Shown: one piece after another, positions 14,602 to 46,712 of the stretch
How positions within the stretch are numbered: position 1 is the first letter of the stretch
How the letters are laid out: every line of letters begins with the position of its first letter
NCBI GenBank assembly: GCA_002772995.1
Contig: PFCO01000001.1
Span: 128,244-192,243, forward strand
Reading direction: 5' to 3'
Length of the DNA stretch: 64,000 nt
From: Candidatus Niyogibacteria bacterium CG10_big_fil_rev_8_21_14_0_10_46_36
GTDB lineage: Bacteria; Patescibacteriota; Minisyncoccia; 1-14-0-10-42-19
Program-made: the position numbers and the translations under genes
Notes under the pieces: model-generated
Told to the model about the DNA's origin: nothing
Database searches by the model: none
The model's input: only the letters and a program-made list of their open reading frames with translations

Positions 14602-14610
14602 GGACTTGCG

Positions 14611-15778: not shown

Positions 15779-15784
15779 ATCGCG

Positions 15785-16540: not shown

Positions 16541-16579
16541 ATACCATTCATACTACAAAAAAAGGTGATAAAATCAAGA

Positions 16580-16620
16580 AAAAACCGCACCGGATACCCG
16601 GTGCGGTTCTGTTTATTTTT
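16580..16620 (-). terminator. Bidirectional intrinsic terminator.
   Basis: Stem AACCGCACCGG / CCGGTGCGGTT with loop ATAC at 16586-16611. It is flanked by an A-run on one side and TTTATTTTTTT on the other. Confidence 0.6.
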
Positions 16621-22545: not shown

Positions 22546-23505
22546 TTACTGTTTTTTTACCCATTCTCGTGCGTGGAAGAGCATATATTCGGCGGTTTCG
22601 GCAAGCATATAGCGGGGCTGCCAGCCGGTCAGTTTTTTAAAACGCGTTGTATCGGGAATTTGCAATGTCACATCAACCGGACGCAGTAAGTCAGAATCAA
22701 GGCGTGTTGGTATAGCACAAGAAGCATATGATATCAGAAGCTTCAAAAAATCACCCACCGGCAAGGAAGCATCTCCCCCAATATTATATACTTCTCCAGA
22801 ATGCCCCTTTGTCGTTGCAAGCCAATACGCCTCCATTGCGTCGCGCGGATCAAGAATAGTTCGTATGGAATCAAGATTTCCGTGGACTAATTCCCTCTTC
22901 TTGCCCTGCTCAATGAGTGCAATTTGCCGCGCAAACGATGTTGCAAATAAATCGCCTCTGCGCGGACTCATGTATGAAAACATCCGGCTGCGTATTATCT
23001 TCATTCCATCTACGCGCCAGTACAATTCTGCCAAAAAATCCTGCGTTATCTTTGACACTGCATAGGGACTTGCCGGGCGAAACGGACAAGACTCTTTTAT
23101 CGGTATGTCTGCTTGCGTAACACATCCATAGACTTCGGATGTACTAATATGGTGCGCGATTGTTTCCGGACAATGCTGCCGCAGCGCCTCAAACAAATTC
23201 GCTGTGCCCATGATATTGTTCTCAAGCACCGCAAGACGATTACTAAATGATGCCTTCACATCTGCATACGAGGCAAAATGAATAACAGCATCAGGTGTTA
23301 CGCCTTGGATCACGGAGGTAATTGCTCCAAAATCAAGCAGGTCGCATTCGTGCGTGGTAACGCCCTGAATGTCTCTTATTTCTGCCCCACTTCTCCATCG
23401 CGCAAGCCCGTGTACATCAATGCCCGGATGGTTTTCCAACACATATTCGGCAAAAGAGCCGCCTCCGGCTCCCCGAATGCCCGTTATTAGAATTGTTTTA
23501 AGCAA
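22546..23505 (-). CDS. GDP-sugar 4,6-dehydratase/4-reductase family (Gmd/Rmd-like extended SDR).
   Basis: ILITGIRGAGGGSFAEYVLENHPGIDVHGLARW...HISTSEVYG is collinear with the Gmd/Rmd N-terminus (ITGxxGQDGSYLAE..L...G.EVHG...STSE.YG). Confidence 0.6.
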   Translation of the reverse strand: MLKTILITGIRGAGGGSFAEYVLENHPGIDVHGLARWRSGAEIRDIQGVTTHECDLLDFGAITSVIQGVTPDAVIHFASYADVKASFSNRLAVLENNIMGTANLFEALRQHCPETIAHHISTSEVYGCVTQADIPIKESCPFRPASPYAVSKITQDFLAELYWRVDGMKIIRSRMFSYMSPRRGDLFATSFARQIALIEQGKKRELVHGNLDSIRTILDPRDAMEAYWLATTKGHSGEVYNIGGDASLPVGDFLKLLISYASCAIPTRLDSDLLRPVDVTLQIPDTTRFKKLTGWQPRYMLAETAEYMLFHAREWVKKQ

Positions 23506-24379
23506 CTATATTCTCCTTTCCCCCGAAGCCGCATGCTTTTGCGACGCGGTATCGTATATGCTTGTATTTGATTTTTAAAGGGTGTTCAAATGTCCTAAAC
23601 ATTTTATTCCGCAAACGAAAAAGTTTCAAGTCGCGCGTAAACGAAGGCCCATATTCTCTAATAGATTCATCAAGCAATGCATTCGCGTATGCATATAATT
23701 CCGCGTCCTGCGTGTTGTTCTTTTGTATTATCTGCATAACATCAATCGCGGTAGTCTCCCGCCGGGGGCGCTCTTTGGTAACATTGGCCAAAATATAACG
23801 AACATCATCCCAGCCGAACTTCTTTTTGCATACCAATAAAGATTCGTCAAAGCGGTCAACCACACCAACAAACGCGAAATGATCATGGATATTCTTTTTT
23901 GCTCGAGCCAAGGCGTCACCGGGCATGGGCAAAGTATCCCACCGGGTAATACCGCTTGCGACTTGACCCGCGAGAACACGCGTCTGGAAATTTGAGACAG
24001 ATACGCCCCCCTCCGCCACATATTGTCGAAGAGGCGTTGTTGCCATCTTTGTATGCGCGTAATGGCCGGAGCGAGCGCTCCCCCGCGCGTAATAATATTC
24101 GGAAAGAATACGATCGGCAGGATTACGTATAAAGGCTATGTATCCAAACGGCTGCGAAAAGTACTCATGAACGCCAAAAGGCATGTGCCCGCTTACACAC
24201 TGGATGCGCTGACGATGTTCTTCCGGCAATCCGGCAAGCGCCCGTATGTCTTTTTCTGTCCCGCCGTATGTCAAAAAAACTGCATCCTTAGGAAATTGCC
24301 GCGCAATAATGGCACGGAATGTCATCCCGCCCACTTTTGCGATATGAAGAAAGATGAGGTTTTGCATACCCCATATCAT
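23498..24379 (-). CDS. Sulfotransferase-family protein (carbohydrate sulfotransferase-like, Sulfotransfer_2/3 type).
   Basis: A 5'-PSB motif FLHIAKVGGMTF (cf. hIPKTGGT) and a 3'-PB motif FIRNPADRILSEYYY (cf. RDPxxRxxSxY) are both present and correctly ordered. Length is 293 aa. Confidence 0.55.
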   Translation of the reverse strand: MIWGMQNLIFLHIAKVGGMTFRAIIARQFPKDAVFLTYGGTEKDIRALAGLPEEHRQRIQCVSGHMPFGVHEYFSQPFGYIAFIRNPADRILSEYYYARGSARSGHYAHTKMATTPLRQYVAEGGVSVSNFQTRVLAGQVASGITRWDTLPMPGDALARAKKNIHDHFAFVGVVDRFDESLLVCKKKFGWDDVRYILANVTKERPRRETTAIDVMQIIQKNNTQDAELYAYANALLDESIREYGPSFTRDLKLFRLRNKMFRTFEHPLKIKYKHIRYRVAKACGFGGKENIVA

Positions 24380-24539: not shown

Positions 24540-25781
24540 ATGAACAGAATAAAATCAAATGCGCTAAGCGCAAAATTCATAGCGGGTTTTTTAGTTGTGG
24601 CGCTCGGTATCTCGCTCATCCTCTTCTATGACTTTGTAGATGCGGCAAACAGTCACTCTGTTGACCTGAAAGCAAGCTCTAGCCAGTACCTGTCAATTAC
24701 AGATGGCAGTCAAACGGGATTAGATTTATCAGGAGATTTAACTTTTGAAGCATGGGTTAAATTTGAAACCATTCCTTCCGGTGACGGAACGCGATATGAA
24801 ATCCTTGGCAAATGGAACAGTGTGCCCAATCTTTCTTATCATTGGAGTTTTATTGTGAATGGATCAACGCTGATGCAAGAATTCGAGGTTTCGGACGATG
24901 GAACAAACTTTGACACATACCAAGTCGCTGCTGGTTCTTTAAATACTGGCCAATGGTATCATGTCGCTATGACATGGGATGCCTCCGCGGCGAGTGCAGA
25001 GTTCTTTCATAACGGTACAAGCATAGGAACTGATGCTGCTTCAAAGACATCAATCTATAATAGCAATTCAACATTTAGAATCGGATCGCATCAAGGAACA
25101 AATAGTTATTTTGATGGCTTGATAGATGACGTGCGGGTATGGAGCGATATTAGAATCAACAGCGAAATATCAAACAACTACCAATCAGAGCTCGTAGGAA
25201 ACGAAACAAATCTTGTATCTTATTGGAAACTCAATAATGACTATACCGATCAAACGACGAATGGGAACACCTTAACGGCAAATAATAGCCCCGTATTCTC
25301 AACGGATATTCCTGGACTATCTAACCCCCCAACACAGGATTTGCAGGTATTCAAATCAACAACCGAAACAATTACAAACGATACAACGCTGTCAAACGAT
25401 AGCGAGCTTCAATTGATTGACCTGGAAGCAGGAAAAACATATATTGTAAGCGGGGCAATATTCGCAAGCACCACTGCTGCCGCCCCAGATCTAAAAATAG
25501 CATTTAACATTCCTGCAGGGGCCGTAGCCGATATAGGATTTGTATCCACAAGCGGGAGTTTGAGCAATTCGGATATACTTCAAGGAACAGGATCTGCAGA
25601 CATCACGAGCGATCGAATAGCATTAGCTAAGGACACTGATTCGATGATCGCCATTAACGGGACCATCCAGATGGGCTCTGTAGACGGAGATGTCATTTTT
25701 AAATGGGCGCAAGCACAATCAAACGCAGCGGCACTTTCTGTTATCCAGGGAAGTTACCTTTTAGCAAATGAGATAGATTAA
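24540..25781 (+). CDS. Secreted protein with a concanavalin A-like lectin/LamG (Laminin_G_3) domain.
   Basis: The signal peptide MNRIKSNALSAKFIAGFLVVALGISLILFYDFVDA|ANS has a positive n-region, a hydrophobic core and a VDA cleavage site. The LamG_3 signatures are DLTFEAWVKFE...GKW...YFDGLIDDVRVWS. Confidence 0.65.
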   Translation: MNRIKSNALSAKFIAGFLVVALGISLILFYDFVDAANSHSVDLKASSSQYLSITDGSQTGLDLSGDLTFEAWVKFETIPSGDGTRYEILGKWNSVPNLSYHWSFIVNGSTLMQEFEVSDDGTNFDTYQVAAGSLNTGQWYHVAMTWDASAASAEFFHNGTSIGTDAASKTSIYNSNSTFRIGSHQGTNSYFDGLIDDVRVWSDIRINSEISNNYQSELVGNETNLVSYWKLNNDYTDQTTNGNTLTANNSPVFSTDIPGLSNPPTQDLQVFKSTTETITNDTTLSNDSELQLIDLEAGKTYIVSGAIFASTTAAAPDLKIAFNIPAGAVADIGFVSTSGSLSNSDILQGTGSADITSDRIALAKDTDSMIAINGTIQMGSVDGDVIFKWAQAQSNAAALSVIQGSYLLANEID

Positions 25782-25795: not shown

Positions 25796-25837
25796 AACCA
25801 AAAAGACCCCGTGCGCGGGGTCTTTTTGGTTTTTTGA
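25796..25837 (+). terminator. Bidirectional intrinsic terminator shared by the convergent LamG and FkbM genes.
   Basis: CCAAAAAGACCCCGTGCGCGGGGTCTTTTTGGTTTTTT contains an 8-bp GC-rich stem AGACCCCG/CGGGGTCT flanked by an A-run and a T-run. Confidence 0.75.
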
Positions 25838-25852: not shown

Positions 25853-26749
25853 CTAAAAATTCTCAATATCCTTCTTTAAAGACTCATAAAGGATATTATC
25901 AACATTGTCCTTCAACAAAAACAAGGCGAAACTAAAATATCCGTATAACATCATCAAAGACCCAAGGCGAATCTTCTGCAAAGAAGAAAGTTCGGAGCCA
26001 TCGTTATTTTTATCACGCACATACAAGCAATCCGCCCACATAATTTCTTTTTTTGATTTTTTAAAAGCAAACCCGCCTCTCCCCCTTCGTTTTGGTTCTA
26101 TTTCAATAAGACGAAATCCTTTTTCTGTAAGAAACGCATGAACATCAGAAAAAAGCGATTGATTTTTATATAAAGAAACAAATTCCGATTCAATAGCAAT
26201 TACAACAACGGAATGCAGCATTTCTTTTCCTGATTTTAAAATATCAAGCTCTGTTCCCTGCGTATCAATTTTTAAAAATGCGACATCCTTGCAATCATAA
26301 CGAGACGCAGCGTTATCAAGAGAAATAATTCTTACCTTTTCTTCCCCCACAATATCAAATTTAGAATGCGCAACATTAAAGAGAGAGAGGGAGTCTCTAT
26401 CAGACTCAAGGAGCGAAGAAAGCCCGGGCTGGCGCGTAATATAAAGTGTTGCCTCCCCCTCTTTTGAAAAAATTGCCTCGGGAATAACTATTGCTTTCCT
26501 CCACCCCTCTTTTTTAAGAATTTTTTTTAAATCTTCTCGTGCGACAGAATCCGGCTCGGAAATAGACAAATCCATACATGATTCAAATCCGTGGAATAAT
26601 TTTGATGCACCCCCCCTGCCTCCTATATCCATTATTTTTAAATTAGCTTTCTTAAATAACCCAATAATGCTTGGTGAATATTTAAGTCGTGCTATCGCAT
26701 CACGTCCTGTAATTTTTTTTCTTATTTTTTTATAAATATGATACAACAT
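25853..26749 (-). CDS. FkbM-family methyltransferase.
   Basis: MDIGGRGGAS carries motif I. FLKIDTQGTELDILKSGKEML matches the FkbM-domain hallmark LKIDvEGaElevL. Confidence 0.65.
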   Translation of the reverse strand: MLYHIYKKIRKKITGRDAIARLKYSPSIIGLFKKANLKIMDIGGRGGASKLFHGFESCMDLSISEPDSVAREDLKKILKKEGWRKAIVIPEAIFSKEGEATLYITRQPGLSSLLESDRDSLSLFNVAHSKFDIVGEEKVRIISLDNAASRYDCKDVAFLKIDTQGTELDILKSGKEMLHSVVVIAIESEFVSLYKNQSLFSDVHAFLTEKGFRLIEIEPKRRGRGGFAFKKSKKEIMWADCLYVRDKNNDGSELSSLQKIRLGSLMMLYGYFSFALFLLKDNVDNILYESLKKDIENF

Positions 26750-26874: not shown

Positions 26875-27549
26875 TCATCTACAATAATGACCCCCCCCCT
26901 CCGTCGCTAATCGCTTTCCAAAAAATCCCAAAGAGTATTTTGTGGGTCCGTATAAATCGGTATCAATATGCACAACATTAAACTTTTTATCTGCCGTGGT
27001 GTGGCTCACATCCTCTATTCTTCCTTTTATTGCTGTTATAGGCAACCCTGAAAGATATTTTTTAACATCTTCGTGCGACGCGTGATTGAATTTGCCCGCG
27101 CTGTGCGTATTGCTGTCTATGGGTGCGATGTCTTTTGCAGAATGGCCCTCAAATGTGTCTATGCTATACATTTCTGCATCCTCAGAAAAAAACAAGGCTG
27201 CTTTCGTCATAAATTTACTTGTTCCACCCCTATATACCCCCACTTCTGCCATACAAAATTTGCCGGCAGAATTTTTTACGGCATTTTCAATCGCCTGATA
27301 TATCGTATATAGCCTATCATGGCCTAACAAGGTTCTTCCTTCACGAGAAACTTCTTCCGCTAAGCGCCCGAATGGCTCAGATTCCCGAATGTCCATCAAG
27401 CGCCAAGTATCCGCGCCAAAAATCCCGGGAATATAATTATATCCTTTTTTCTTAGAAAACAACTCATACCCAAGTAAACGAACTGTTCGTTTTATTTCGT
27501 ATCCTATTCGTCTTTTTATTTTTTTAATTATTCTCATTGTCGGAAACAA
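26875..27549 (-). CDS. TylF/MycF-family class I SAM-dependent O-methyltransferase.
   Basis: MAEVGVYRGGTSKFM and VVHIDTDLYGPTKYSL match the macrocin O-methyltransferase family (E.GVwRGGS...DcDLYeST). A G9 tract lies 5 codons before the stop. Confidence 0.55.
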   Translation of the reverse strand: MFPTMRIIKKIKRRIGYEIKRTVRLLGYELFSKKKGYNYIPGIFGADTWRLMDIRESEPFGRLAEEVSREGRTLLGHDRLYTIYQAIENAVKNSAGKFCMAEVGVYRGGTSKFMTKAALFFSEDAEMYSIDTFEGHSAKDIAPIDSNTHSAGKFNHASHEDVKKYLSGLPITAIKGRIEDVSHTTADKKFNVVHIDTDLYGPTKYSLGFFGKRLATEGGGHYCR

Positions 27550-27580: not shown

Positions 27581-29434
27581 TCACTCAAAATATTTCCGTA
27601 ACCACAGCTCCAAATGCACCCACTGCCAGATATGAAACGAATTCGGGTTATGTTCCGCATGACAATATCTCCCGTATTCTTCAAGAGCCGCGCTTTGATT
27701 AAAGTAAGGGCGCTCAGCAAAAGACTTTGAAGCGAGGATGGGGTATATCCACGAAGTAAGGTCCTTTTTAAACCATTCGCGTTGCGGCGATGGAACCGCG
27801 CGCTTCGGGGCATTGCGCACCATATCCGGTATAAGATCGCGGAACGCTTTACGCATAAAATATCGCTGTTCTCCGTCCCGTATTTTATGCTCGCCCGGCA
27901 ATGATAAGCCGTACTCTATCAAACGATAATCAACAAAGGGGACGCGCTGTTCAACACCATACGCCATGGCTGCTCTATCCGCGCTATGCAAAATGCGGGG
28001 TAACTTTGTGTATAATATGTCGCGATATTGCATATTCCTAAAATGAGACACAAAGGGCTTTTCAAATTCAAGCCGGGAGGCGTGTGTTCGCAAAAACTCG
28101 CTGCGTAACGCGTGCGCATGCGTAAATGCCGTTCCATCCGCGGAAGTCCCCCCGTACAAATATGATGAAAGCGTGTTCATAAAAAAATTCATATGTTCCT
28201 CCGCTCCGGCAAACGCATGTGATTCTCCGTACCGCATTAGTTCTTTTTTTGCCTGTTCCCCTCCCTTCTCACGCATAACATCAAGCAAAAACGCCCCCAT
28301 GTAATACTCATATCCTCCTCCAATCTCATCTCCTCCTTGACCACCCAGCACAACGGGAATACCCTGCCTCTTGCAATGCTCAGCGACCATATGGAGTCCG
28401 AAAGTGGGCAGTCCAGGAAATGGCTCATCTTGATGCCATAGTACGCGTTCCGCAAGTTCCGCCATATGATGCGGCCGTATCTCTATAAAATTAACATGCC
28501 ATCCGAGCCCATCGGCAAGCGCCTGCATATAGGGCTTTTCTATATCTTGATGCTCGCCGTAAATATGAGAAAAAAGATGGAAATTCTTCTGCCCCTGCGA
28601 TACTTTATTCACCATTGCGGTAATCGCGGAAGAATCAAACCCGCCGGAAAGCTGAATGCCTATCGGAACATCACTCCTTAGCTGAAGCGTAACCGCGTCT
28701 TTGAATAAGTGCAAAAAACGCTCAGACACATCTCCCTCCGGGAGTGAGGATACGGCGTTAACCCGCTCGGCAAGATCCCAGTATCGTTGTATCGTAATAT
28801 GACCATCCCTCCAACGAAGCGTTGTGCCTGCCGGTAATTGAAAAATGTTTTTAAAAAAAGTTTCGTGCGAGTGCTGATAATAACCGCGCGCGAGATAATC
28901 ATAGATTATTTTATCATTCGGCTGCGTCTTAATGCCCGCGGCAAGCAACGCTTTTATCTCTGAAGCAAAATACAATACGCCGTTCTCCATCGCGTAGTAA
29001 AACGGCTTTACGCCGAGATGATCGCGAGCCGCAAAAAGTTCTTTTTTTCGCTCATCCCAGATGGCAAACGCGAATATCCCGTTCAGCCGCGAAACAACAG
29101 CCGGTCCCCATTTTTGATATCCATGCAAAATAACCTCGGTATCGCTCGTGCTTTTGAATGACACATCCTTCAGCTCCTCTTTTATCTCCAGATAGTTATA
29201 CACCTCTCCGTTATATGTAATCCAGCATGATTTGTCGGCAGATGCCATAGGTTGGTGCCCCGCCGAAGACAGGTCCAAAATGCTCAACCGCCTATGACCG
29301 AGCGCCACATTTTCACGCATATATGTTCCCTCGTCATCAGGACCCCGATGCTCAAGGCTTCGCACCATCGTATTGAGCTGCTCCTCTGAAGGAGCAAAAT
29401 TATCCCTATGAATAATGCCTGCAATACCACACAT
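27581..29434 (-). CDS. Asparagine synthetase B-type glutamine amidotransferase (WbpS-like candidate sugar amidotransferase).
   Basis: MCGIAGII is the N-terminal nucleophile Cys2. The SGGFDSS PP-loop ATP pyrophosphatase motif is present. Length is 617 aa. Confidence 0.85.
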   Translation of the reverse strand: MCGIAGIIHRDNFAPSEEQLNTMVRSLEHRGPDDEGTYMRENVALGHRRLSILDLSSAGHQPMASADKSCWITYNGEVYNYLEIKEELKDVSFKSTSDTEVILHGYQKWGPAVVSRLNGIFAFAIWDERKKELFAARDHLGVKPFYYAMENGVLYFASEIKALLAAGIKTQPNDKIIYDYLARGYYQHSHETFFKNIFQLPAGTTLRWRDGHITIQRYWDLAERVNAVSSLPEGDVSERFLHLFKDAVTLQLRSDVPIGIQLSGGFDSSAITAMVNKVSQGQKNFHLFSHIYGEHQDIEKPYMQALADGLGWHVNFIEIRPHHMAELAERVLWHQDEPFPGLPTFGLHMVAEHCKRQGIPVVLGGQGGDEIGGGYEYYMGAFLLDVMREKGGEQAKKELMRYGESHAFAGAEEHMNFFMNTLSSYLYGGTSADGTAFTHAHALRSEFLRTHASRLEFEKPFVSHFRNMQYRDILYTKLPRILHSADRAAMAYGVEQRVPFVDYRLIEYGLSLPGEHKIRDGEQRYFMRKAFRDLIPDMVRNAPKRAVPSPQREWFKKDLTSWIYPILASKSFAERPYFNQSAALEEYGRYCHAEHNPNSFHIWQWVHLELWLRKYFE

Positions 29435-29436: not shown

Positions 29437-30456
29437 TTATATTGTTTCAAAAAATTCTTTCATCTCGCTTTTAGGATTTTTTTTGTAAGCATCCCGGAAC
29501 CGCGCCCGCAATGTCCGTAACGGGCCCGCGTATTTATTCAAAAATAGTTTGTTTGCAGCCAGGTATGGAAGTTCTTTTATTTTTGTAGACGAACACAACC
29601 GAACGATGTCTTGATGCTTTTCTTTTTTGAACGTTTTTTTAATGCCTGTTTTTTTCGCGATAATGTGTATCTCGCCCGGAATGCAATTTTCCGGAAAAAA
29701 GATGTTTGAATGCCTTTTTAAAAGTGGCACGGAAAGCATGCGTTCCACCTCAAAACCCTCCTGCTCAAGCAGGCTTGAGAGTGTTACCGAGGTGAAATAA
29801 TATGTATGCACAAATTTAAAAAATTGCTTGCGAAATGTCATGCCATACAAGTCGGGAGTATTCAAATACAGTACGCCGCCGGGCTTTAACGCTTCCCCCA
29901 TGCGCTTTATCGCCGCCCTCGGATCAAGCATATGCTCAATTAAAGCAATACCAACTACCGCATCATATGACCCCGGAGAATATGCTTGGGAGAAAAAATC
30001 ACCCACAGTTATCGGAACCCCAAACACATCTTGTGCTTTCTGCGCCGCTTCTTCTCCCATCTCAACACCTGATACGTTCTCATATCCGCGTTCTTTTAAA
30101 AAATATAAAAATGCGCCCATACCGCATCCCACCTCTAATACGGATGCGGTTTTAGGAAGGCCCCAATGCCGCACCACCCAATCCGCATACCACTCTTGGT
30201 ATCGCTTTTTATCTAATATACTCTCTTTTGATAGTGTGTTATTTCGCTTTTTTCTAGAGCCAAGTCCTCCGCTGTAATATGCCGCATACGCTGATGCGGC
30301 AGGCCGCGGATGCAAAAAACAAAGCCCGCAACGCTTACACACAACAACATCAAAGGAGTCGCCTAAAAAGTCGTACCCCTCATTCCCCCGAAAGGTTAAG
30401 AGCGTATGAAAATCGCGAGCTACACAATTATTACAAAGGGTTATTCTCTTGGACAT
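29437..30456 (-). CDS. Class I SAM-dependent methyltransferase with an N-terminal zinc-ribbon.
   Basis: CNNC...CKRCG four-Cys N-terminus. VLEVGCGMGAFLYFLKERGYENVSGVEMGEEAAQKA is motif I. VLYLNTPD is post-I. Confidence 0.6.
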   Translation of the reverse strand: MSKRITLCNNCVARDFHTLLTFRGNEGYDFLGDSFDVVVCKRCGLCFLHPRPAASAYAAYYSGGLGSRKKRNNTLSKESILDKKRYQEWYADWVVRHWGLPKTASVLEVGCGMGAFLYFLKERGYENVSGVEMGEEAAQKAQDVFGVPITVGDFFSQAYSPGSYDAVVGIALIEHMLDPRAAIKRMGEALKPGGVLYLNTPDLYGMTFRKQFFKFVHTYYFTSVTLSSLLEQEGFEVERMLSVPLLKRHSNIFFPENCIPGEIHIIAKKTGIKKTFKKEKHQDIVRLCSSTKIKELPYLAANKLFLNKYAGPLRTLRARFRDAYKKNPKSEMKEFFETI

Positions 30457-30463: not shown

Positions 30464-31300
30464 TTAGAGATTAAAAATTTTTTGTAATGTTGTTTCTGCC
30501 TTATTCAATCGCAATGCCTGATACCACTTGTTCCATTTTTTAAAACGCGCAAGATCACGCGTAAATTCGGAGCCATATGCTTTTTTCTCTCTTTCGAAAC
30601 GCTCACGAACATAATGATACAGCTGTATGTCTAATTGATTCTTTTCTTTTATACGAACGATCAAAGATTCGGGGATTCGTGTTCGTTCTTTGCTATATCG
30701 CGGGGCTTTGTTTTCATTCGCCCGCGCATAATACACCCGACGGATACCCAGCGCTTTTTTCAACAAAAGCAAAGATTCATCGAATTGTTCAACAACGCCC
30801 GAAAATACAATATGTTCATCTATATTTTTCTTTGCCGTCTCAAGCGCGCGCGCATCAATTGGAACCGCTTTCGCATAGCCCATTATGTCTTCTCCCGCAA
30901 TCATGCGGGTCTGAAAATTAGAAACCATAGCGACATCACTTTCAATAAATTCGCGCAGTGAAATGTCTTTTGCCATTTGATCCGCCTTGTACGGCGATGC
31001 TTTTTTTTCTTGTGCTGCGTAATAAAATGAAACAACCCGCGAAATAGGCTCGCGGAGCATCGTGACATAATTGACAGGCCTTGAAAAATACGTATGCGCT
31101 CCAAAAGGAATATGCCCCCATAAAAACTTAATAGAATCCTTTTCCTGCTGTGAAAGGCCGCTAAACCCCCACATCGTTCCGTCCTCAAGAAGTTTTGTGC
31201 GTACTGCTGCCCGCTCTGGAAATGCGCGTGCGATGACCCGCTGGAATGTAACGCCACCCCCCTTCACGATATGAAGAAAAATTATGGGATCACGTGTCAT
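30464..31300 (-). CDS. Sulfotransferase-family protein, paralog of 23498..24379.
   Basis: IIFLHIVKGGGVTFQRV is the 5'-PSB motif and VTMLREPISRVVSFYYAA is the 3'-PB motif. Length is 278 aa. Confidence 0.55.
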   Translation of the reverse strand: MTRDPIIFLHIVKGGGVTFQRVIARAFPERAAVRTKLLEDGTMWGFSGLSQQEKDSIKFLWGHIPFGAHTYFSRPVNYVTMLREPISRVVSFYYAAQEKKASPYKADQMAKDISLREFIESDVAMVSNFQTRMIAGEDIMGYAKAVPIDARALETAKKNIDEHIVFSGVVEQFDESLLLLKKALGIRRVYYARANENKAPRYSKERTRIPESLIVRIKEKNQLDIQLYHYVRERFEREKKAYGSEFTRDLARFKKWNKWYQALRLNKAETTLQKIFNL

Positions 31301-32405
31301 GATGTTTTACAAGATACCCTATTTGTTCCAAATGCCTGGCTAATTCATCATGCTTATGCTTATCGGGGTAATGTTCAAGAACCAACGATGCATGTTTTAA
31401 AATTCTATTCATGGTCATAACTGCTTCTATGGGATGTTTTCCTATAGCGGTCTCCGCTGACAATGTAACGCCTGCCGCACCGTCACGCACCGTTGTTACA
31501 ATGTCGTGCACCTCCGCAAGCGTCGGGCTTCTTTTCTCAACCATTGTCTCCAAAAGATTTGTTGCCACAAAAACCTCTTTGCCTGCCTCGCGAGCTTTTT
31601 TGAGTATAATTTTCTGCACAAATGGTATTTTTTCAACGGGTATTTCCTTGCTCAAATCTCCCCTGTCTATCAAGATCATATCCGATCTTTTTATTATGTC
31701 ATCTATATGCAGTAATGCATCAGCGCATTCTACCTTTGAGATAATCTTCATAGAATTGTTTGACGCCTTTCGCATAGCGTCCACATACTCTCCGGAACGA
31801 ATAAAAGAGGCAGCAAGATGTCCAATCTGCTCCCGCAGTCCGATCGCGATAGATTCGTGGTCCTTCTTTGTTAACGGATGAAGATTAAACTGTTTTTGGG
31901 CTGAAGAATGCACAGCAATTCCTTTATTGCTTCCTAATACCCCGCTTTCATGCACCCGCAAAACAATATATCCTTCCGCAAGCATCGTAACATCGGATAC
32001 ACACAACGCCAAAGAATCAAACCCGACACGCAATATATCTCCGACCGCGAGCTGACCCAAAATATGGCCTGGCCGCAACGAAAACGAATGCGCATCGCCA
32101 ACCGTCGGAACAGCATACGCTTTAATCATATGTCCTTTTTCAAGATATGCCGCATCATGCGCGATCATGTCTGAGCGGATTTGCGAGCCTTCGGTATCAA
32201 TAATAAACGGGATGCCGACCTTACGCGCGAGCGCAACAAAATATTCAAGATCCTCGATGCTTGAATGGGACATATTTACGCGCACAAAATCAACCCCGTT
32301 ATCCTTAAGGCGCCTGAGATCCGATTCATTTTTCGTTGACGGACCAAGAGTGACAATAAGTTTTATCCTATTGTTCATGGAATTAGCATAAAGTATTTGA
32401 CACAA
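31290..32405 (-). CDS. Pyruvate kinase homolog (A/B barrel domains only; lacks the C-terminal regulatory domain).
   Basis: IKLIVTLGPSTKNE...VRVNMSHS...IIDTEGSQIR is the PK N-terminal K+/substrate region. MILIDRGDLSKEIPVEKIPFVQKIILKKAREAGKEVFVATNLLETMVEKRSPTLAEVHDIVTTVRDGAAGVTLSAETAIGKHPIEAV is collinear with the PK active site (MVARGDLG.EIP.EKV...QK.......GKPVI.ATQMLESM...PRPTRAE..DVANAV.DG.D..MLSGETA.G.YP.EAV). Length is 371 aa versus about 470 for canonical PK. Confidence 0.7.
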   Translation of the reverse strand: MCQILYANSMNNRIKLIVTLGPSTKNESDLRRLKDNGVDFVRVNMSHSSIEDLEYFVALARKVGIPFIIDTEGSQIRSDMIAHDAAYLEKGHMIKAYAVPTVGDAHSFSLRPGHILGQLAVGDILRVGFDSLALCVSDVTMLAEGYIVLRVHESGVLGSNKGIAVHSSAQKQFNLHPLTKKDHESIAIGLREQIGHLAASFIRSGEYVDAMRKASNNSMKIISKVECADALLHIDDIIKRSDMILIDRGDLSKEIPVEKIPFVQKIILKKAREAGKEVFVATNLLETMVEKRSPTLAEVHDIVTTVRDGAAGVTLSAETAIGKHPIEAVMTMNRILKHASLVLEHYPDKHKHDELARHLEQIGYLVKHHDT

Positions 32406-32431: not shown

Positions 32432-33163
32432 ATGAAACAACAAAACGGGCTGCGGGTACTTGGAGTGGTGGGCGCGCGTTCTGGTTCTAAAGGCATACCC
32501 GATAAGAACATCAAACCGCTTGCAGGCAAACCACTCATGGCATGGATAATTGAGGCAGCAAAAAAATCAATCCACGCCCCCCGCGTTGTCCTTTCTACCG
32601 ACTCTCAAGCATACGCGGATATCGGTAAGCAATACGGCACAGAAGTTCCATTTTTGCGCCCGAAAGAACTCGCGGGAGACAATATTCCCGACTTTGATTT
32701 TTTGTATCACGCGGCAACATGGCTTAAGGAACACGAAGGCTGGCAAGCAGATATTATTCTGCGTCTTCCACCAACCACCCCGCTATGCACGCCCGAACAC
32801 ATAGATGCCTGCATCAAGCTTTTATTGGATGACCCGCGCGCTGACTCTTCAAGAACAGTCACAAAGGCGAACAAGCATCCCTATAAATTATGGCGCCTAA
32901 ACGGCAATTATATTGAACCTTTCTTCCTGGAAGAGTATACGGGCCTCAAAGACGCGCACAATCTCCCCCGCCAATCATTCCCCGAAGCCTATGCGCATGT
33001 GGATGTCATCGCGCTTCGATGGAAAACATTAGTAGAAAACAAAGAGATGGCCGGCAAATATGTGCGCTACCATCTTATACCAAAAGAAGAAGCGATTGAC
33101 ATAGATACCGAAATTGATTTCTTAACCGCAGAAGAACTACTAAAAAGAAAAAAAGAAGGCTAA
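32432..33163 (+). CDS. CMP-nonulosonic/ulosonic acid cytidylyltransferase (NeuA/KdsB family).
   Basis: LGVVGARSGSKGIPDKNIKPLAGKPLMAWIIEAA is the N-terminal P-loop-like signature of acylneuraminate cytidylyltransferases. Length is 243 aa. Confidence 0.8.
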   Translation: MKQQNGLRVLGVVGARSGSKGIPDKNIKPLAGKPLMAWIIEAAKKSIHAPRVVLSTDSQAYADIGKQYGTEVPFLRPKELAGDNIPDFDFLYHAATWLKEHEGWQADIILRLPPTTPLCTPEHIDACIKLLLDDPRADSSRTVTKANKHPYKLWRLNGNYIEPFFLEEYTGLKDAHNLPRQSFPEAYAHVDVIALRWKTLVENKEMAGKYVRYHLIPKEEAIDIDTEIDFLTAEELLKRKKEG

Positions 33164-33771: not shown

Positions 33772-35145
33772 CTATGCCCCCGAAGCAATAATTAAAAACT
33801 TTGCGAGCCGCTCCCCGGATTTGCCGTCCATAATACCGCAACACGCCTCTCGGAATTCTTTACGCGCCTCTTTGTCTTGCGATGGGTCTTTCATGTAATT
33901 ATGAAGAGCGCTTATATATTCCTCTTTTGTTTTTGCTAAACGAATGGCGCCAAGCGCGACGGGATGCGCGTAATGATTATAATCCCACCGGTGGTCTCCC
34001 TCAAAATACCCCCGAGGACGCGAGTGGAATCCGGCGATCACAACAGGCTTATCAAAAAATACGCCGTCTAGCGCAATGGAAGACGGCCCACAGCTTACTA
34101 CATCGCTATAATATATCGCGCACATGAGATTATCGTCGTCTTCAATGCTGATCTCTCTATCCCCCTCTACATCATCGCGAAATACCACGCCGGGTTTATC
34201 AAAGTACATGTTTGGATAAGGCTTTTGGCCTTGCAACTGTCTCGTAGGAATAGTAGGGGCGAAACGCACATAGACCTGTTCGGACATTGTGCTCAATATA
34301 CCCAATACATATGGATCGGTATCATTGTCAGGTATATATTGATCCCCGATAACTGCGTGCATAATCATTTTTTTTGCCGGATCAAAGCCGATTTTTTTGA
34401 AAAACTCATCACGCGAAAGCTTTGGGCCGCGGAAATATTTATCATAATGAGGAATCCCTACAACGGTTATATTTTTATTCTCAAAATCATGAAAGCGAAG
34501 TGCGTCATCACGCAACCGGTAGGTCGCGGTCACCAGGTGATCAGGCATGGCGCGCACTAAGCCATGGAGTGTTAGGTTGTCCCATGAACGGACCATTCCG
34601 TACGCCGGAACGGCATAGCGTTTTGATTCATGAATAAGCTCCACATCCCGTTCATTTAATAAATCAGTGGCAAATATGAGATTAGGATTGTATTTCTCAA
34701 AATACGGCTTGAATCTTCCCTTGTACGCGGTATGAAAATCTATAAATCGCAGAAACGAACGCATAAAACGAAAACGGAAGAGTGGTTCGAGCGCAAACAT
34801 CCCCAGCCAATAAAAGAATTTCCCCTCTTGCTTCCACTTCAATTTCCGCTCAAGGCGCACCGATGCCGTATGATGAACAAATTTTGAGATACGCTTGCAC
34901 GCAAGAGTGGCAAAATTGCCGGAGGGAGAAGGCATGGCGATGCTCTCTATTATTACATTCGGATATGAAAAGTGTTTTTCAAAATAATCCTTTTTGTAAT
35001 GAAGCACAAAAAGAACAACCCGGACATTTCCATTCTCCGAAAGAAAGCGCAGTACATCCGTTGCAAGAATGTTGCGCGATATGAACGGATGAAAGCTTGA
35101 AATAAAAACGGTTTTTTTGATATTTGCGCGTTTATCTCGGGACAT
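33772..35145 (-). CDS. GT-B-like surface carbohydrate biosynthesis protein, paralog 2 of 4.
   Basis: RSWDNLTLHGL motif, C-terminal SDVVSCGPSSIALDGVFFDKPVV, and an N-terminal KKTVFISSFHPFISRNI. Length is 457 aa. Confidence 0.45.
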   Translation of the reverse strand: MSRDKRANIKKTVFISSFHPFISRNILATDVLRFLSENGNVRVVLFVLHYKKDYFEKHFSYPNVIIESIAMPSPSGNFATLACKRISKFVHHTASVRLERKLKWKQEGKFFYWLGMFALEPLFRFRFMRSFLRFIDFHTAYKGRFKPYFEKYNPNLIFATDLLNERDVELIHESKRYAVPAYGMVRSWDNLTLHGLVRAMPDHLVTATYRLRDDALRFHDFENKNITVVGIPHYDKYFRGPKLSRDEFFKKIGFDPAKKMIMHAVIGDQYIPDNDTDPYVLGILSTMSEQVYVRFAPTIPTRQLQGQKPYPNMYFDKPGVVFRDDVEGDREISIEDDDNLMCAIYYSDVVSCGPSSIALDGVFFDKPVVIAGFHSRPRGYFEGDHRWDYNHYAHPVALGAIRLAKTKEEYISALHNYMKDPSQDKEARKEFREACCGIMDGKSGERLAKFLIIASGA

Positions 35146-37579: not shown

Positions 37580-38926
37580 TTATTGTTTCTCTGTGAGTGC
37601 TGCGATGCGCTCGATAAGATTAATGTTTCTTTCGTAGCTTTTCCCATCGTGGTGCGGGATAAACTCTCGGAGTAATGTTTGGCGTTTTGTCTCGTGAAGC
37701 GCAGGATTGTCTAGATACGCATTAATAGCGCCCGCAAGCTCTTCATCTGTTTTCGCAAGCACCGCCGCACCATGCCGAAGCACTGGTTCGTAATGGCGCT
37801 CCTTATACATCATCCCATATACATCATCAAATGTAATATTTACAACAGGGGTATGAAAAATACAGCACTCAATCGTAACCGTAGAGCGATGGTTCACATT
37901 AACATCCGCATACATAAGCGTGTGTTTTAAATTCAGAAGATCTTCTTTTGTCATCTCGGTGTATTTTTTCCCGTTCGTATTGGAAATTTCGGCTCCCGCC
38001 TTTTCCATGTACACCCGTTCTGTATTAGCGAATGCACTATAGGTTTCTATAAGATCGCGCGGGTGGACCCGAAAGAATATATTTGGCGATCCTTTTATTT
38101 TTCCTGAATCCCGGAGCGCAATAATCCGCCCGAGCAATTCCACTTGAAACGGATACGCCTTGGTAACGCTCGTAATAAGAATGGTCTTTTTGTGGGGATC
38201 AAGCCCCTTGCTCCGTAAAAAATCTTCACGCCCCACCAAAGGAATAGAACTATCAAAGTAATAGTCAAAACGGATAGGCCCTCCAATAAAAACATGGTCG
38301 GGCGTGTAGCGGTGAATAGAAAGCGCATCATCATACTGCATTTGGTTCCAACAAATCAAATAATCTGTTTTTCTTGTATGTCCAAAATTCGTTGTAAGGT
38401 TATCCCAACTGAAATTCATAGCAACCGTAGGGATATTGAATTTTCGCGCCTGGATAACTGCCTGCGCTTCAAACGGCTTAAGGCCGGGAGTGGGCATTAA
38501 GACCAAACTTGGCTTATACGCCTGTACAGCACGCTCAAACTCGGGCATTTTTTTGGTCAGTATGCCCTCAATAAAAGTAAATGTGTCGTTGCGGATAATG
38601 CCTTTGTGTATGAACTTGGCAATAAAACGGAGCCTTTTGCGGTGGGGAAAATCGATGCGTAGCCGGTTTACCAAGGGCTCATACCACGATTCGTTTTCGC
38701 GATTGAGCGTTAAGCGCAGTTCTTTCATCCGATTCCAAAAACGAAGATCCGCAATAGGCATCTTCTCATATGTCACATTTTTTATCACAGGATATATATT
38801 GGTTGAGAGCGTATCGGGCAAAAAGACAATAACCCGGAACGTACGCGCAAGGTGATGGATGTATTCCGTCCGTAACAGATCGGAGGTGTGAACGGTGTTT
38901 GAAATAAAAAGAAAAACAGTCTTCAT
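37580..38926 (-). CDS. GT-B-like surface carbohydrate biosynthesis protein, paralog 3 of 4.
   Basis: NFSWDNLTTNFG motif and C-terminal ADVNVNHRSTVTIECCIFHTPVV. Length is 448 aa. Confidence 0.45.
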   Translation of the reverse strand: MKTVFLFISNTVHTSDLLRTEYIHHLARTFRVIVFLPDTLSTNIYPVIKNVTYEKMPIADLRFWNRMKELRLTLNRENESWYEPLVNRLRIDFPHRKRLRFIAKFIHKGIIRNDTFTFIEGILTKKMPEFERAVQAYKPSLVLMPTPGLKPFEAQAVIQARKFNIPTVAMNFSWDNLTTNFGHTRKTDYLICWNQMQYDDALSIHRYTPDHVFIGGPIRFDYYFDSSIPLVGREDFLRSKGLDPHKKTILITSVTKAYPFQVELLGRIIALRDSGKIKGSPNIFFRVHPRDLIETYSAFANTERVYMEKAGAEISNTNGKKYTEMTKEDLLNLKHTLMYADVNVNHRSTVTIECCIFHTPVVNITFDDVYGMMYKERHYEPVLRHGAAVLAKTDEELAGAINAYLDNPALHETKRQTLLREFIPHHDGKSYERNINLIERIAALTEKQ

Positions 38927-41916: not shown

Positions 41917-42629
41917 GAAAAAAGAAATACGCCATTCTCGCCGTAATCCCGGCCCGAGGTGGATCAAAATCCATACCCCGGAAAAACATAAAACCCCTTG
42001 CGGGAAAACCATTACTCACCTATTCCATAACGGAAGCGCTGAAAAGCAAATTACTTACAAGAGTAGTTGTTTCCTCTGAGGATAAGCGCATCATCCGCAC
42101 AGCAAAGAGATACGGAGCTGAAGCGCCATTTGTCCGCCCAAAAGCACTCGCAACAGACACCGCCCTTGCCGTGCCTACCATCCAGCATGCTGTACGAGAA
42201 ATGGAACGCCAAGAAAACACAACATACGATTATGTTGTTATGCTTCAGCCGACCACTCCGCTTCGCACCACCCGCCATATTGATGCTTGTCTCCTGCAGC
42301 TCATCCGCACGAAAGCTGATTCGGTCATAAGCGTTGTCCGCGTATGGGACAAGCACCCCTACCGCATGAAAACAATAAAGCGCGGGCGGCTCGTAGACTT
42401 TGGGAAAGAAACAAAAGAGAATATGCCCCGCCAAAGCCTTCCTCCGGTGTACTTGAGAAACGGGGCGATATACGCATGCAAAAGAAATGTACTGATGCGG
42501 CAAAACAGTTTTAAGGGAAAAGATTCCCGCCCCTACATCATGACAGAAGAAGAGTCGGTGAATATAGATAGCGTTTTAGATTTTCAGATTGCCGAACTTC
42601 TGATAAAAAATCGACGAAGCAAGCGTTAA
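41913..42629 (+). CDS. Second CMP-sugar cytidylyltransferase (NeuA/KdsB family).
   Basis: AVIPARGGSKSIPRKNIKPLAGKPLLTYSI. Length is 238 aa. It shares the KNIKPLAGKPL core with the 32432..33163 gene. Confidence 0.8.
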   Translation: MRKKKYAILAVIPARGGSKSIPRKNIKPLAGKPLLTYSITEALKSKLLTRVVVSSEDKRIIRTAKRYGAEAPFVRPKALATDTALAVPTIQHAVREMERQENTTYDYVVMLQPTTPLRTTRHIDACLLQLIRTKADSVISVVRVWDKHPYRMKTIKRGRLVDFGKETKENMPRQSLPPVYLRNGAIYACKRNVLMRQNSFKGKDSRPYIMTEEESVNIDSVLDFQIAELLIKNRRSKR

Positions 42630-46673: not shown

Positions 46674-46712
46674 ATAAAAAAGCCTCGTACGACCTGTACG
46701 AGGCTTTGTTTT
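46674..46712 (-). terminator. Bidirectional intrinsic terminator at the boundary between the glycan locus and the housekeeping block.
   Basis: AGCCTCGTAC-GACC-TGTACGAGGCT forms a stem of about 10 bp. It is flanked by AAAAA and TTTGTTTTT. Confidence 0.7.

What the first reader, a model, noticed from the sequence alone, without database searches (positions are those of the whole stretch)
31290..32405. Truncated pyruvate-kinase homolog inside the glycan locus next to a CMP-sugar synthetase
The 371-aa ORF is collinear with the catalytic A/B domains of pyruvate kinase, including the K+/PEP-binding N-terminus and the MxxRGDLG...ATQMLESM...SGETAxGxYP active-site block. It lacks the C-terminal allosteric domain. 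It is transcribed divergently from a 27-bp spacer shared with the neuA-like gene and is translationally overlapped with a sulfotransferase gene. A housekeeping PK would not be expected here. Possibilities are a dedicated PEP-generating or PEP-consuming step for the NeuB-type condensation, or a neofunctionalised PK-fold enzyme.
Basis: seen in the sequence. Interest (0 to 1): 0.55.

Follow-up and report, generated by a model that had tools for sequence, protein, structure and literature searches.

The report
Short pyruvate kinase serving glycan sulfation
The gene is a real pyruvate kinase lacking its regulatory domain, and it belongs to a large, apparently undescribed subfamily that is almost always fused or adjacent to the enzymes that make or use the sulfate donor PAPS, so it probably regenerates ATP for sugar sulfation and has no specific link to sialic-acid-type sugar synthesis.

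Summary
The ORF is real. It matches the whole pyruvate-kinase A+B barrel (Pfam E 3.6e-62; AlphaFold pLDDT 94; best solved folds are all pyruvate kinases). It has no C-terminal allosteric domain, and the window holds no remnant of one. The likely start is the ATG at 32378 (362 aa; NCBI PIR69971.1, Candidatus Niyogibacteria). All PEP, ADP, Mg2+ and K+ ligand residues are conserved.

The link is to sulfation, not to NeuB. Of 261 relatives retrieved, 139 are fused to ATP sulfurylase and/or APS kinase, including trifunctional PK-sulfurylase-APS kinase proteins. In every relative at 35% identity or more with readable flanks, the gene is fused or adjacent to ATP sulfurylase, APS kinase or a sulfotransferase. 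In the window it overlaps a PAPS-type carbohydrate sulfotransferase gene by 11 nt and heads a six-gene glycan-tailoring operon.

The subfamily has an invariant signature next to the active site: K114E, E117Q, A292D, G297S, Q328N.

Best reading: an unregulated PEP:ADP phosphotransferase that keeps ATP high and ADP low for PAPS synthesis, as PK/PEP does in test-tube PAPS synthesis.

Main gap: no ATP sulfurylase or APS kinase lies in the 64-kb window or about 14 kb of extra flank.

I found no paper on this association. I rate it a new variant of a known kind.

The parts
31290..32378 (-). Short pyruvate kinase (A+B domains only), 362 aa from the ATG at 32378. The mechanical ORF extends to a TTG at 32405 (371 aa). 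It is the first gene of the operon.
30464..31300 (-). PAPS-type carbohydrate sulfotransferase. Its ATG overlaps the PK stop region by 11 nt. The 5'-PSB (FLHIVKGGG) and 3'-PB (REPISRVVS) motifs align with heparan sulfate 6-O and 2-O sulfotransferases.
   Evidence: (PF03567, 28.7 bits against a cut-off of 22)
29437..30456 (-). Class I SAM methyltransferase, third gene of the operon (7-nt gap).
27581..29434 (-). Asparagine-synthase-type glutamine amidotransferase, fourth gene (2-nt gap). The block PK-ST-MT-AsnB appears syntenic with L009, from another Niyogibacteria genome: the PK and ST matches were confirmed by tblastn, while the MT and AsnB correspondence is inferred from ORF order and size.
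26875..27549 (-). TylF-like O-methyltransferase, fifth gene.
25853..26749 (-). FkbM-family methyltransferase, last gene of the operon.
25796..25831 (.). 16-bp-stem G+C-rich palindromic hairpin flanked by T and A runs, between convergent genes. It is the probable bidirectional terminator that ends the operon.
32432..33163 (+). CMP-nonulosonate-type cytidylyltransferase (CTP_transf_3; PseF-like but below cut-off), transcribed divergently from the PK gene.
23498..24379 (-). Second sulfotransferase of the glycan locus, 38% identical to the L009 sulfotransferase.

Best explanation
The gene encodes a constitutively active pyruvate kinase with no allosteric domain: PEP + ADP -> pyruvate + ATP. It belongs to a distinct subfamily dedicated to the sulfation pathway.

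Proposed mechanism:
- ATP sulfurylase uses ATP to make APS.
- APS kinase uses a second ATP to make PAPS and releases ADP.
- The short PK converts that ADP back to ATP at the expense of PEP, which keeps PAPS synthesis running for the sulfotransferases of the glycan locus.

In the window, the PK is translationally coupled to a PAPS-type carbohydrate sulfotransferase and leads a six-gene glycan-tailoring operon.

Shown: the fold, conservation of the catalytic residues, and the fusions and gene neighbourhoods.
Inferred: PK activity itself, ATP regeneration as the physiological purpose, and the presence of a PAPS-synthesis route elsewhere in this genome.
For: 1. Fold and chemistry.
- Full PK barrel match. 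The AF2 model has pLDDT 94, and all top solved matches are pyruvate kinases over about 340 columns, TM about 0.8.
- Residues equivalent to rabbit R72, N74, S76, H77, D112, T113, R119, K206, K269, E271, R293, G294, D295, T327 and E363, plus P52 of the adenine pocket, are conserved in 59-60 of 60 family members and in the window protein (reference PykF sequence verified).

2. Fusions.
- In relatives the PK barrel is fused to PUA_2 + ATP-sulfurylase, to APS kinase, or to both in 904-930 aa trifunctional proteins. It also occurs in the reverse order and with the PK_C domain retained.
- 139 of 261 retrieved relatives carry such a fusion, and 52 look like complete PK-sulfurylase proteins.

3. Neighbourhoods. 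Every relative at 35% identity or more with readable flanks is fused or adjacent to Sat, APSK or a sulfotransferase:
- L001, L006, L007, L008 and the P0100 contig.
- L009-L012.
- L024-L027.
- L031-L041 and L044.
These span CPR bacteria, Anaerolineaceae and DPANN archaea, with further family members annotated as Omnitrophica, Planctomycetota and Gammaproteobacteria. More distant PKs (31-33% identity) next to Sat in an alphaproteobacterium (L018) and a Liptonbacteria genome (L021) share the A292D substitution.

4. Window context.
- The PK gene overlaps the sulfotransferase gene by 11 nt. The same PK->ST pair is conserved in another Niyogibacteria genome (L009, 67% and 63% identity) and in L024.
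- The sulfotransferase has a 3'-phosphate-binding motif aligned with heparan sulfate sulfotransferases, so it should need PAPS.

5. Biochemical rationale from papers.
- ADP binds ATP sulfurylase like APS (PMC3734648).
- There is a precedent for a pathway-pulling helper enzyme fused to ATP sulfurylase: inorganic pyrophosphatase in stramenopiles and haptophytes (PMC2275785).
Against: - No ATP sulfurylase or APS kinase gene lies in the 64-kb window (tblastn at E<=10 gives only noise). None lies in about 6 kb further left or about 8 kb further right either. The PAPS source in this genome is therefore unknown. L009 (tblastn) and L024 (called-gene Pfam list) show the same PK->ST arrangement with no Sat or APSK detected nearby.
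- The most common fusion partner is ATP sulfurylase, which does not produce ADP. APS kinase, which does, is a rarer partner. Simple ADP scavenging may not be the whole story.
- The subfamily has invariant substitutions next to the active site, which hint at altered properties: K114E, E117Q, A292D, G297S, Q328N, and mostly S361A and G362A.
- The scores are below NCBIfam's pyruvate-kinase cut-offs (260 vs 306; 271 vs 432), and NCBI's annotation pipeline calls the protein hypothetical.
- No activity has been measured.
Confidence: 0.6

Rival explanations
1. Neofunctionalised PK-fold enzyme of the sulfation pathway. It would still bind PEP or pyruvate and a nucleotide, but would do something other than plain ADP phosphorylation. 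Examples: act on, or be tuned against, sulfonucleotides (APS, PAPS, PAP); work with a different cation requirement; or serve mainly as a regulatory or scaffolding partner of ATP sulfurylase, where the sulfurylase sits in place of the lost C domain.
For: - The invariant subfamily signature lies next to the K+, Mg2+, PEP and nucleotide sites, and matches neither the K+-dependent (T113/K114/E117/T120) nor the K+-independent (L113/Q114/K117) PK signature (PMC8835810 and PMC4374775).
- A292D is shared by all sulfurylase-linked PKs, including those that group with canonical PKs in a rough NJ tree (L018, P0243, P0251). This suggests a context-specific adaptation.
- The preferred fusion partner is ATP sulfurylase, not the ADP-producing APS kinase.
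- Some loci carry two sulfurylase domains, one fused to PK and one fused to APS kinase.
Against: - All catalytic and substrate-binding residues for both PEP and ADP, and the B-domain lid with K206, are strictly conserved. This is hard to explain if the chemistry had changed.
- Trifunctional PK-Sat-APSK proteins show that the PK does not replace either known step.
- Fusions also occur with PKs that keep the C domain and a canonical K+-independent signature (P0251).
Confidence: 0.17
2. It is simply the housekeeping pyruvate kinase of a reduced CPR genome that happens to sit in the glycan locus. The short form reflects genome streamlining and no pathway-specific role.
For: - All catalytic residues are intact.
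- CPR genomes are small.
- No second PK is seen in the window or its readable flanks.
- UniProt names it pyruvate kinase.
Against: - The same subfamily is fused or adjacent to sulfate-activation genes in very different organisms, including a 5.2-Mb Anaerolineaceae genome.
- The PK->sulfotransferase coupling is conserved in L009 and L024.
- Canonical full-length PKs of other CPR and other bacteria lack the subfamily signature (L013-L017, L019, L020).
- Only 78 kb of a contig of at least 459 kb was inspected, so the absence of another pyk is not established.
Confidence: 0.13
3. One reading: the enzyme supplies or consumes PEP for the NeuB-type condensation that makes the nonulosonic acid activated by the neighbouring cytidylyltransferase.
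For: - NeuB and CTP_transf_3 genes occur in the window (1037-2110; 32432-33163; 41913-42629).
- They also occur near several relatives: L001, L007, L012, L026 and L039.
Against: - PK consumes PEP, so it would compete with NeuB, and running it backwards to make PEP is strongly unfavourable (established thermodynamics).
- Many relatives have no NeuB nearby, but all have Sat, APSK or a sulfotransferase: L006, L008, L010, L011, L024 and L031-L038.
- No fusion to NeuB-pathway enzymes was seen among 261 relatives.
- NeuB lies 29 kb from the PK gene in the window.
Confidence: 0.04

Closest known systems
Canonical pyruvate kinase (EC 2.7.1.40; e.g. E. coli PykF, G. stearothermophilus PK 2e28, rabbit muscle M1)
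   Same: Same A-domain TIM barrel and B-domain lid. About 29-33% identity. Every known ligand residue for PEP, ADP, Mg2+ and K+ is kept.
   Different: - No C-terminal allosteric domain.
- Invariant K114E, E117Q, A292D, G297S and Q328N.
- Below the NCBIfam PK cut-offs.
- In the window protein and L009, the A-A interface arginine (R341) is replaced by Leu.
- The genomic context is sulfation, not glycolysis.
Short 352-aa pyruvate kinase of NCBIfam NF005234 (PRK06739)
   Same: Also a PK of about 350 aa, close to the length of the window protein. That it lacks the C domain is inferred from its profile length (352); I did not test this.
   Different: The window protein scores 175 bits against a cut-off of 564, so it is not a member. 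I did not examine that family's context or signature.
Bifunctional PAPS synthases (ATP sulfurylase + APS kinase fusions) and ATP sulfurylase-pyrophosphatase fusions of stramenopiles and haptophytes
   Same: The same evolutionary logic: enzymes of sulfate activation, and a helper enzyme that pulls the unfavourable reaction, are fused into one polypeptide (PMC3734648; PMC2275785). Relatives of the window protein form PK-Sat, PK-APSK and PK-Sat-APSK fusions.
   Different: - The helper here is a pyruvate kinase, which I did not find described.
- The window's copy is stand-alone and is coupled to a sulfotransferase, not to Sat or APSK.
Engineered in vitro PAPS-synthesis cascades with PK/PEP ATP regeneration
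   Same: The same set of activities: ATP sulfurylase, APS kinase, pyruvate kinase + PEP, and a sulfotransferase. PK is needed to remove ADP, which locks APS kinase in a dead-end complex (PMC9885120).
   Different: That is a laboratory design using commercial full-length PK. Here the combination appears to be encoded naturally, with a dedicated short PK.

Membership tests
Pyruvate kinase (Pfam PF00224 barrel; EC 2.7.1.40) | Full-length match to the PK A+B barrel domain | tested here: met
   PF00224 E 3.6e-62, 210.8 bits against a cut-off of 30, profile 2-328 of 328. Foldseek top hits are all PKs.
Pyruvate kinase (Pfam PF00224 barrel; EC 2.7.1.40) | Catalytic and ligand residues: R72, N74, S76, D112, T113, R119, K206, K269, E271, G294, D295, T327, E363 (rabbit numbering) | tested here: met
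   All are present in the window protein and in 59-60 of 60 family members.
Pyruvate kinase (Pfam PF00224 barrel; EC 2.7.1.40) | C-terminal alpha/beta allosteric domain (PF02887) | tested here: not met
   No PF02887 hit. The protein ends about 30 residues after the barrel. There is no remnant in the window.
Pyruvate kinase (Pfam PF00224 barrel; EC 2.7.1.40) | Score above the curated NCBIfam equivalog or subfamily cut-offs | tested here: not met
   TIGR01064: 260.3 against 306.4. NF004491: 271.3 against 432. NCBI's annotation pipeline calls it a hypothetical protein.
Pyruvate kinase (Pfam PF00224 barrel; EC 2.7.1.40) | One of the two described monovalent-cation signatures: T113/K114/E117/T120 or L113/Q114/K117/(L,I,V)120 | tested here: not met
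   The window has T/E/Q/S. The family has T or S / E / Q / N, T or S. Signatures are taken from PMC8835810.
Pyruvate kinase (Pfam PF00224 barrel; EC 2.7.1.40) | PEP + ADP -> pyruvate + ATP activity | not testable with these tools
   Needs an enzyme assay.
Sulfation-linked short PK subfamily (defined here) | Signature E114, S/A116, Q117, D292, S297, N328, L329 (rabbit numbering) | tested here: met
   The window protein has E, S, Q, D, S, N, L. The same signature is found in more than 130 representatives clustered at 50% identity.
Sulfation-linked short PK subfamily (defined here) | Fused or adjacent to ATP sulfurylase, APS kinase or a PAPS-type sulfotransferase | tested here: met
   11-nt overlap with the sulfotransferase gene. 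However, no Sat or APSK lies in the window or its readable flanks.
Short pyruvate kinase NF005234 (PRK06739) | Score above the curated cut-off (564 bits) | tested here: not met
   175.4 bits.
PAPS synthase / ATP sulfurylase / APS kinase | Presence of PF01747, PF14306 or PF01583 domains in the protein | tested here: not met
   Only PF00224 is found in the window protein. Those domains occur only in fused relatives.

The most novel reading that the evidence does not exclude
The D292/E114/Q117 short PKs would be an unrecognised third component of prokaryotic PAPS synthases. The PK active site would be re-tuned to work with sulfonucleotides: for example, to discriminate ADP from the look-alike APS, to be controlled by APS, PAPS or PAP, or to hand ATP directly to the fused sulfurylase. 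That would make sulfate activation PEP-driven in CPR bacteria, DPANN archaea and many other uncultured lineages. In Niyogibacteria, the stand-alone PK would act directly with the sulfotransferase.
Probability: 0.2. Interest if true: 0.75.

Novelty: new variant of a known kind. Interest (0 to 1): 0.58.

Why it matters
Sulfation of glycans and metabolites depends on PAPS, and PAPS synthesis is thermodynamically and kinetically awkward. Known natural solutions are fusion of ATP sulfurylase with APS kinase, a GTPase subunit, or pyrophosphatase.

The data here point to a further widespread solution: a dedicated pyruvate kinase without its regulatory domain, wired into the pathway, often as PK-sulfurylase(-APS kinase) fusion proteins. 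More than 50 complete fusion proteins were seen in two database searches. This mirrors the PK/PEP ATP-regeneration trick that chemists add to enzymatic PAPS synthesis.

If confirmed, it would:
- give a correct annotation for hundreds of proteins now labelled "pyruvate kinase", "sulfate adenylyltransferase" or "hypothetical";
- provide compact natural PAPS-synthesis modules for biocatalytic sulfation;
- indicate that CPR bacteria and DPANN archaea invest in sulfated, methylated and amidated surface glycans that probably contain nonulosonic acids.

Tried and rejected
- Frameshifted full-length pyk: rejected. There is no PK_C remnant in any frame, and the downstream sequence is a complete sulfotransferase gene.
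- Sat or APSK hidden in the window: tblastn with APS-kinase and sulfurylase domains gave only noise at E<=10. Pfam scans of essentially all ORFs of 150 aa or more found none.
- Extending the window: I used terminal genes to read about 6 kb to the left (L028) and about 8 kb to the right (L029). Neither held Sat, APSK or PK. One look-up failed because the last ORF is truncated by the window end.
- Finding this MAG's own APS kinase: I searched with a close relative's APSK and looked for hits on the 459,142-bp contig. None was among the best 120 hits, which is inconclusive.
- The genome-contig scan did not contain the source genome itself (best hit 67%, L009).
- Five literature searches for a PK-sulfurylase or PK-APS kinase fusion or gene cluster returned only papers that use PK in coupled assays, or unrelated papers.
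- P0237 (PK-PK-adenylate kinase) first looked like support for nucleotide recycling. However, its PK domains carry the canonical A292 and K117 signature and are not subfamily members, so I did not count it as evidence.
- The sigma-70 promoter scan found no more sites than shuffled sequence (15 against 17.7 +/- 4.3), so I make no promoter claim.
- PK replacing APS kinase: considered and disfavoured, because PK-APSK and PK-Sat-APSK fusions exist.
Full report
**1. Observation**

The ORF 31290..32405 on the minus strand (371 aa, TTG start) exists as described.
- It matches the whole Pfam pyruvate-kinase barrel profile (PF00224, E 3.6e-62, profile positions 2-328 of 328).
- It matches solved pyruvate kinases at E 1e-47 to 1e-38.
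- An AlphaFold2 model built on a 60-sequence alignment is confident (mean pLDDT 94, pTM 0.91).
- Its best solved-structure matches are all pyruvate kinases, aligned over about 340 columns at TM about 0.8. This corresponds to the A-domain TIM barrel plus the all-beta B-domain lid (model residues about 67-157).
- There is no C-terminal allosteric domain: no PF02887 hit, and no remnant anywhere in the window by tblastn with the E. coli PykF C domain.
- The sequence downstream is a complete sulfotransferase gene whose ATG overlaps the PK stop region by 11 nt.

Two small corrections apply. Homologs all start at residues 10-15 of the ORF, and the public records hold a 362-aa protein (PIR69971.1, "hypothetical protein COU47_00875"; UniProt A0A2H0TEK0, "Pyruvate kinase"). 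The probable start is therefore the ATG at 32378, and the divergent spacer to the cytidylyltransferase gene is 53 nt (26 nt if counted from the TTG).

The window comes from a Candidatus Niyogibacteria (CPR/Parcubacteria) MAG, from a contig of 459,142 bp.

**2. Surroundings**

The window is mostly one very large glycan-biosynthesis region. It contains:
- NeuB (1037-2110) and two CTP_transf_3 cytidylyltransferases;
- several nucleotide-sugar dehydratases, epimerases and aminotransferases;
- four Glyphos_transf-like genes;
- two sulfotransferases (30464-31300 and 23498-24379);
- many methyltransferases.

The PK gene heads a tightly packed six-gene minus-strand operon. The gene order is PK, sulfotransferase, methyltransferase, AsnB-type amidotransferase, TylF-like methyltransferase, FkbM methyltransferase. 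The successive gaps are -11, 7, 2, 31 and 125 nt. The operon ends at a 16-bp-stem hairpin at 25796-25831.

The sulfotransferase passes the Pfam Sulfotransfer_2 threshold. Its nearest solved relatives are heparan sulfate 6-O and 2-O sulfotransferases. Both the 5'-phosphosulfate-binding motif (FLHIxKxGG) and the 3'-phosphate-binding motif (RxPxxRxxS) are aligned. That these motifs mark PAPS-dependent enzymes rests on my own knowledge of the sulfotransferase literature.

**3. What the relatives show**

A search of 5.8 billion proteins returned relatives at 37-67% identity. Very many of them carry ATP-sulfurylase domains (PF14306 + PF01747) or an APS-kinase domain (PF01583).

Mapping showed that the PK barrel is N-terminal. 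The extension is either about 172 aa (APS kinase) or about 389 aa (a complete ATP sulfurylase).

A profile search of 1.84 billion representatives was dominated by 710-756 aa proteins. Pfam scans of selected representatives confirmed these architectures:

| Architecture | Example(s) |
|---|---|
| PK-PUA_2-ATP-sulfurylase | P0121 |
| PK-sulfurylase-APS kinase (trifunctional) | P0122, P0157 |
| Sulfurylase-PK (reverse order) | P0243 |
| PK + PK_C-sulfurylase | P0251 |
| Phosphodiesterase-PK(-sulfurylase) | P0233, P0253 |

Over both searches, 139 of 261 relatives are fused to sulfurylase and/or APS kinase, and 52 look like complete PK-sulfurylase proteins.

Gene neighbourhoods agree with this in every case I could read:
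- PK-APSK fusion in a NeuB / NeuC-like epimerase (Epimerase_2) / cytidylyltransferase locus with two sulfotransferases (L001).
- PK-Sat next to Sat-APSK and a sulfotransferase (L006).
- PK->APSK->sulfotransferase (L007).
- Sat-APSK->PK-Sat in a 5.2-Mb Anaerolineaceae genome (L008).
- PK->APSK (P0100 contig, L026 and L027).
- PK with APSK 3.6 kb downstream (L025).
- PK->sulfotransferase (L024).
- PK-Sat in Pacearchaeota (L010, L011).
- NeuB, cytidylyltransferase and PK-Sat (L012), and Sat->PK->APSK in an alphaproteobacterium (L018).
- Eleven more metagenome loci with PK-Sat or PK-Sat-APSK (L031-L041 and L044).

The closest genome hit is another Niyogibacteria (L009). It repeats the window's arrangement, with the PK at 67% and the sulfotransferase at 63% identity. 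The following ORFs have the same order and sizes as the window's methyltransferase and AsnB genes. I did not compare those two by sequence.

Canonical full-length PKs picked up by the same scans (L013-L017, L019, L020) have no such neighbours.

**4. Active site**

I used E. coli PykF as the reference. My remembered sequence was verified as identical to PDB 4yng.

All residues known to bind PEP, ADP, Mg2+ and K+ or to catalyse transfer are present in the window protein and in 59-60 of 60 family members. In rabbit numbering these are R72, N74, S76, H77, D112, T/S113, R119, K206, K269, E271, R293, G294, D295, T327 and E363. The TxGP motif with the adenine-pocket proline is also invariant.

The subfamily also has its own invariant set: K114E, E117Q, A292D, G297S, Q328N, M329L and G362A, and mostly S361A (the window keeps S). 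The same string is seen in more than 130 representatives clustered at 50% identity.

Position 117 and its neighbours define the K+-dependent (T113/K114/E117/T120) and K+-independent (L113/Q114/K117) PK classes (PMC8835810, PMC4374775). The subfamily fits neither class.

A292D is the most general marker. It also occurs in sulfurylase-linked PKs that otherwise look canonical and fall with canonical PKs in a rough neighbour-joining tree (L018, P0243, P0251). I cannot explain what Asp292 does.

The window protein and L009 have also lost the PTRAE arginine (R341L). From memory, this arginine makes the A-A interface contact in allosteric PKs.

**5. Mechanism**

The simplest reading that fits all of this is ordinary PK chemistry placed at the service of sulfate activation.
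- ATP sulfurylase and APS kinase each consume ATP, and APS kinase releases ADP.
- ADP traps APS kinase with APS in a dead-end complex and binds ATP sulfurylase in the same manner as APS (PMC3734648).
- In a test-tube cascade, PAPS was practically not formed unless PK + PEP regenerated ATP (PMC9885120).
- Loss of the allosteric domain would make the enzyme independent of glycolytic effectors.
- Fusion of a "pulling" helper enzyme to ATP sulfurylase has a precedent in the pyrophosphatase fusions of stramenopiles and haptophytes (PMC2275785).

In the window, translational coupling to the sulfotransferase suggests that the two proteins are made together.

What is shown: the fold, residue conservation, fusions and synteny.
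What is inferred: the enzymatic activity, the purpose (ATP regeneration and ADP removal), and the existence of a PAPS-synthesis route elsewhere in this genome.

**6. Weak points and rivals**

- No ATP sulfurylase or APS kinase gene lies in the window or in about 14 kb of additional flank. An attempt to find this MAG's APS kinase by homology was inconclusive.
- The commonest fusion partner is the sulfurylase, which makes no ADP.
- The invariant substitutions next to the active site leave room for a re-tuned or partly new function (rival 1, about 0.17).
- It could still be the only PK of a reduced genome (rival 2, about 0.13). Against this, the conserved linkage across phyla, and the fact that canonical PKs from other CPR lack the signature, both argue otherwise.
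It also fails because sulfation genes are the universal neighbours, while NeuB is not.

**7. Comparison with what is known, and novelty**

The protein works like a pyruvate kinase and is a homolog of that family, but it fails three of the family's usual criteria:
- it has no C domain;
- it scores below the curated NCBIfam thresholds;
- it has neither of the two described cation signatures.

It is not a member of the short-PK model NF005234 (175 against 564 bits).

Five full-text searches found no description of a PK-ATP sulfurylase or PK-APS kinase fusion or operon. That library omits most subscription journals, so this is absence of evidence only.

I rate it a new variant of a known kind: a dedicated, sulfation-linked pyruvate-kinase subfamily, of which the window's gene is a stand-alone member coupled to a sulfotransferase. 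Interest is moderate to fairly high (0.58). The chemistry is probably ordinary. The association is strong and widespread, appears unreported, is directly testable, and is useful for annotation and for biocatalytic sulfation.

Noticed in passing
window 58769-62251 (-): The isoleucyl-tRNA synthetase (1160 aa) carries a complete histidine-phosphatase (His_Phos_1, PGM-like) domain inserted at residues 491-663, between the two halves of the catalytic domain. It has an RHG motif at 495-497 and an SHGD motif near 635. The identical protein is present on other metagenome contigs (L029, L030).
   Followed up: partly
relatives: L018 10001-11419; P0243; P0251; all family members: The Ala-to-Asp change just before the RGD Mg2+/PEP motif (rabbit A292D) is shared by every ATP-sulfurylase-linked PK. 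This includes PKs that keep the C domain or have the reverse domain order and that cluster with canonical PKs. Canonical PKs have Ala. The role of this Asp is unexplained.
   Followed up: partly
L044 (contig Ga0066639_10044258, 3230 bp): A PK (50% identical, partial)-ATP sulfurylase-APS kinase stretch comes from the same JGI metagenome (Ga0066639) as a contig that carries this window's IleRS region (L029). It could belong to another organism, or it could be this organism's missing PAPS synthase. I could not decide.
   Followed up: no
P0233 (1151 aa), P0253 (786 aa): Some subfamily-related PKs are fused at the N-terminus to a type I phosphodiesterase / nucleotide pyrophosphatase domain (PF01663), with or without ATP sulfurylase. 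This may be a further helper activity acting on PPi, PAP or other nucleotides.
   Followed up: no
L006 8001-14720; L008 8315-11704: Two ATP-sulfurylase domains sit side by side in one operon, one fused to PK and one fused to APS kinase. In both loci the PK-fused copy is interrupted or truncated (a frameshift in L006, an early stop in L008).
   Followed up: no
window 9480-10877, 33772-35145, 37580-38926, 44054-45475 (all -): Four paralogous genes of 448-473 aa have weak CDP-glycerol glycerophosphotransferase (Glyphos_transf) matches confined mostly to the C-terminal part. They may be polymerases or transferases for the nonulosonate or phospho-sugar part of the glycan.
   Followed up: no
window 39040-40773 (+): A UDP-glucose/GDP-mannose dehydrogenase-family protein has an extra N-terminal region of about 130 aa containing a CBS domain.
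   Followed up: no
window 25796-25831: A perfect 16-bp-stem G+C-rich hairpin flanked by A and T runs lies between the convergent Laminin_G_3 gene (24540-25781, +) and the FkbM gene (25853-26749, -). It is a likely bidirectional terminator.
   Followed up: partly
window 46712-49627 (-) and L029 764-5604 (beyond the right end of the window): Proline dehydrogenase plus an aldehyde (P5C-type) dehydrogenase lie in the window. Just outside it are Glyoxalase-family, cupin-family and FAA-hydrolase-family genes, which may be tyrosine-catabolism genes (4-HPPD, homogentisate dioxygenase and fumarylacetoacetase by my reading). This is an unusually rich amino-acid catabolism for a CPR bacterium.
   Followed up: no
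window 13759-18471 (-): Inside the glycan region there is a PhyH-type dioxygenase, a HAD phosphatase, a DJ-1/PfpI protein, a cupin, and a split transketolase/E1-like pair (17515-18471 and 16613-17548). This suggests an unusual branched or two-carbon-extended sugar pathway.
   Followed up: no
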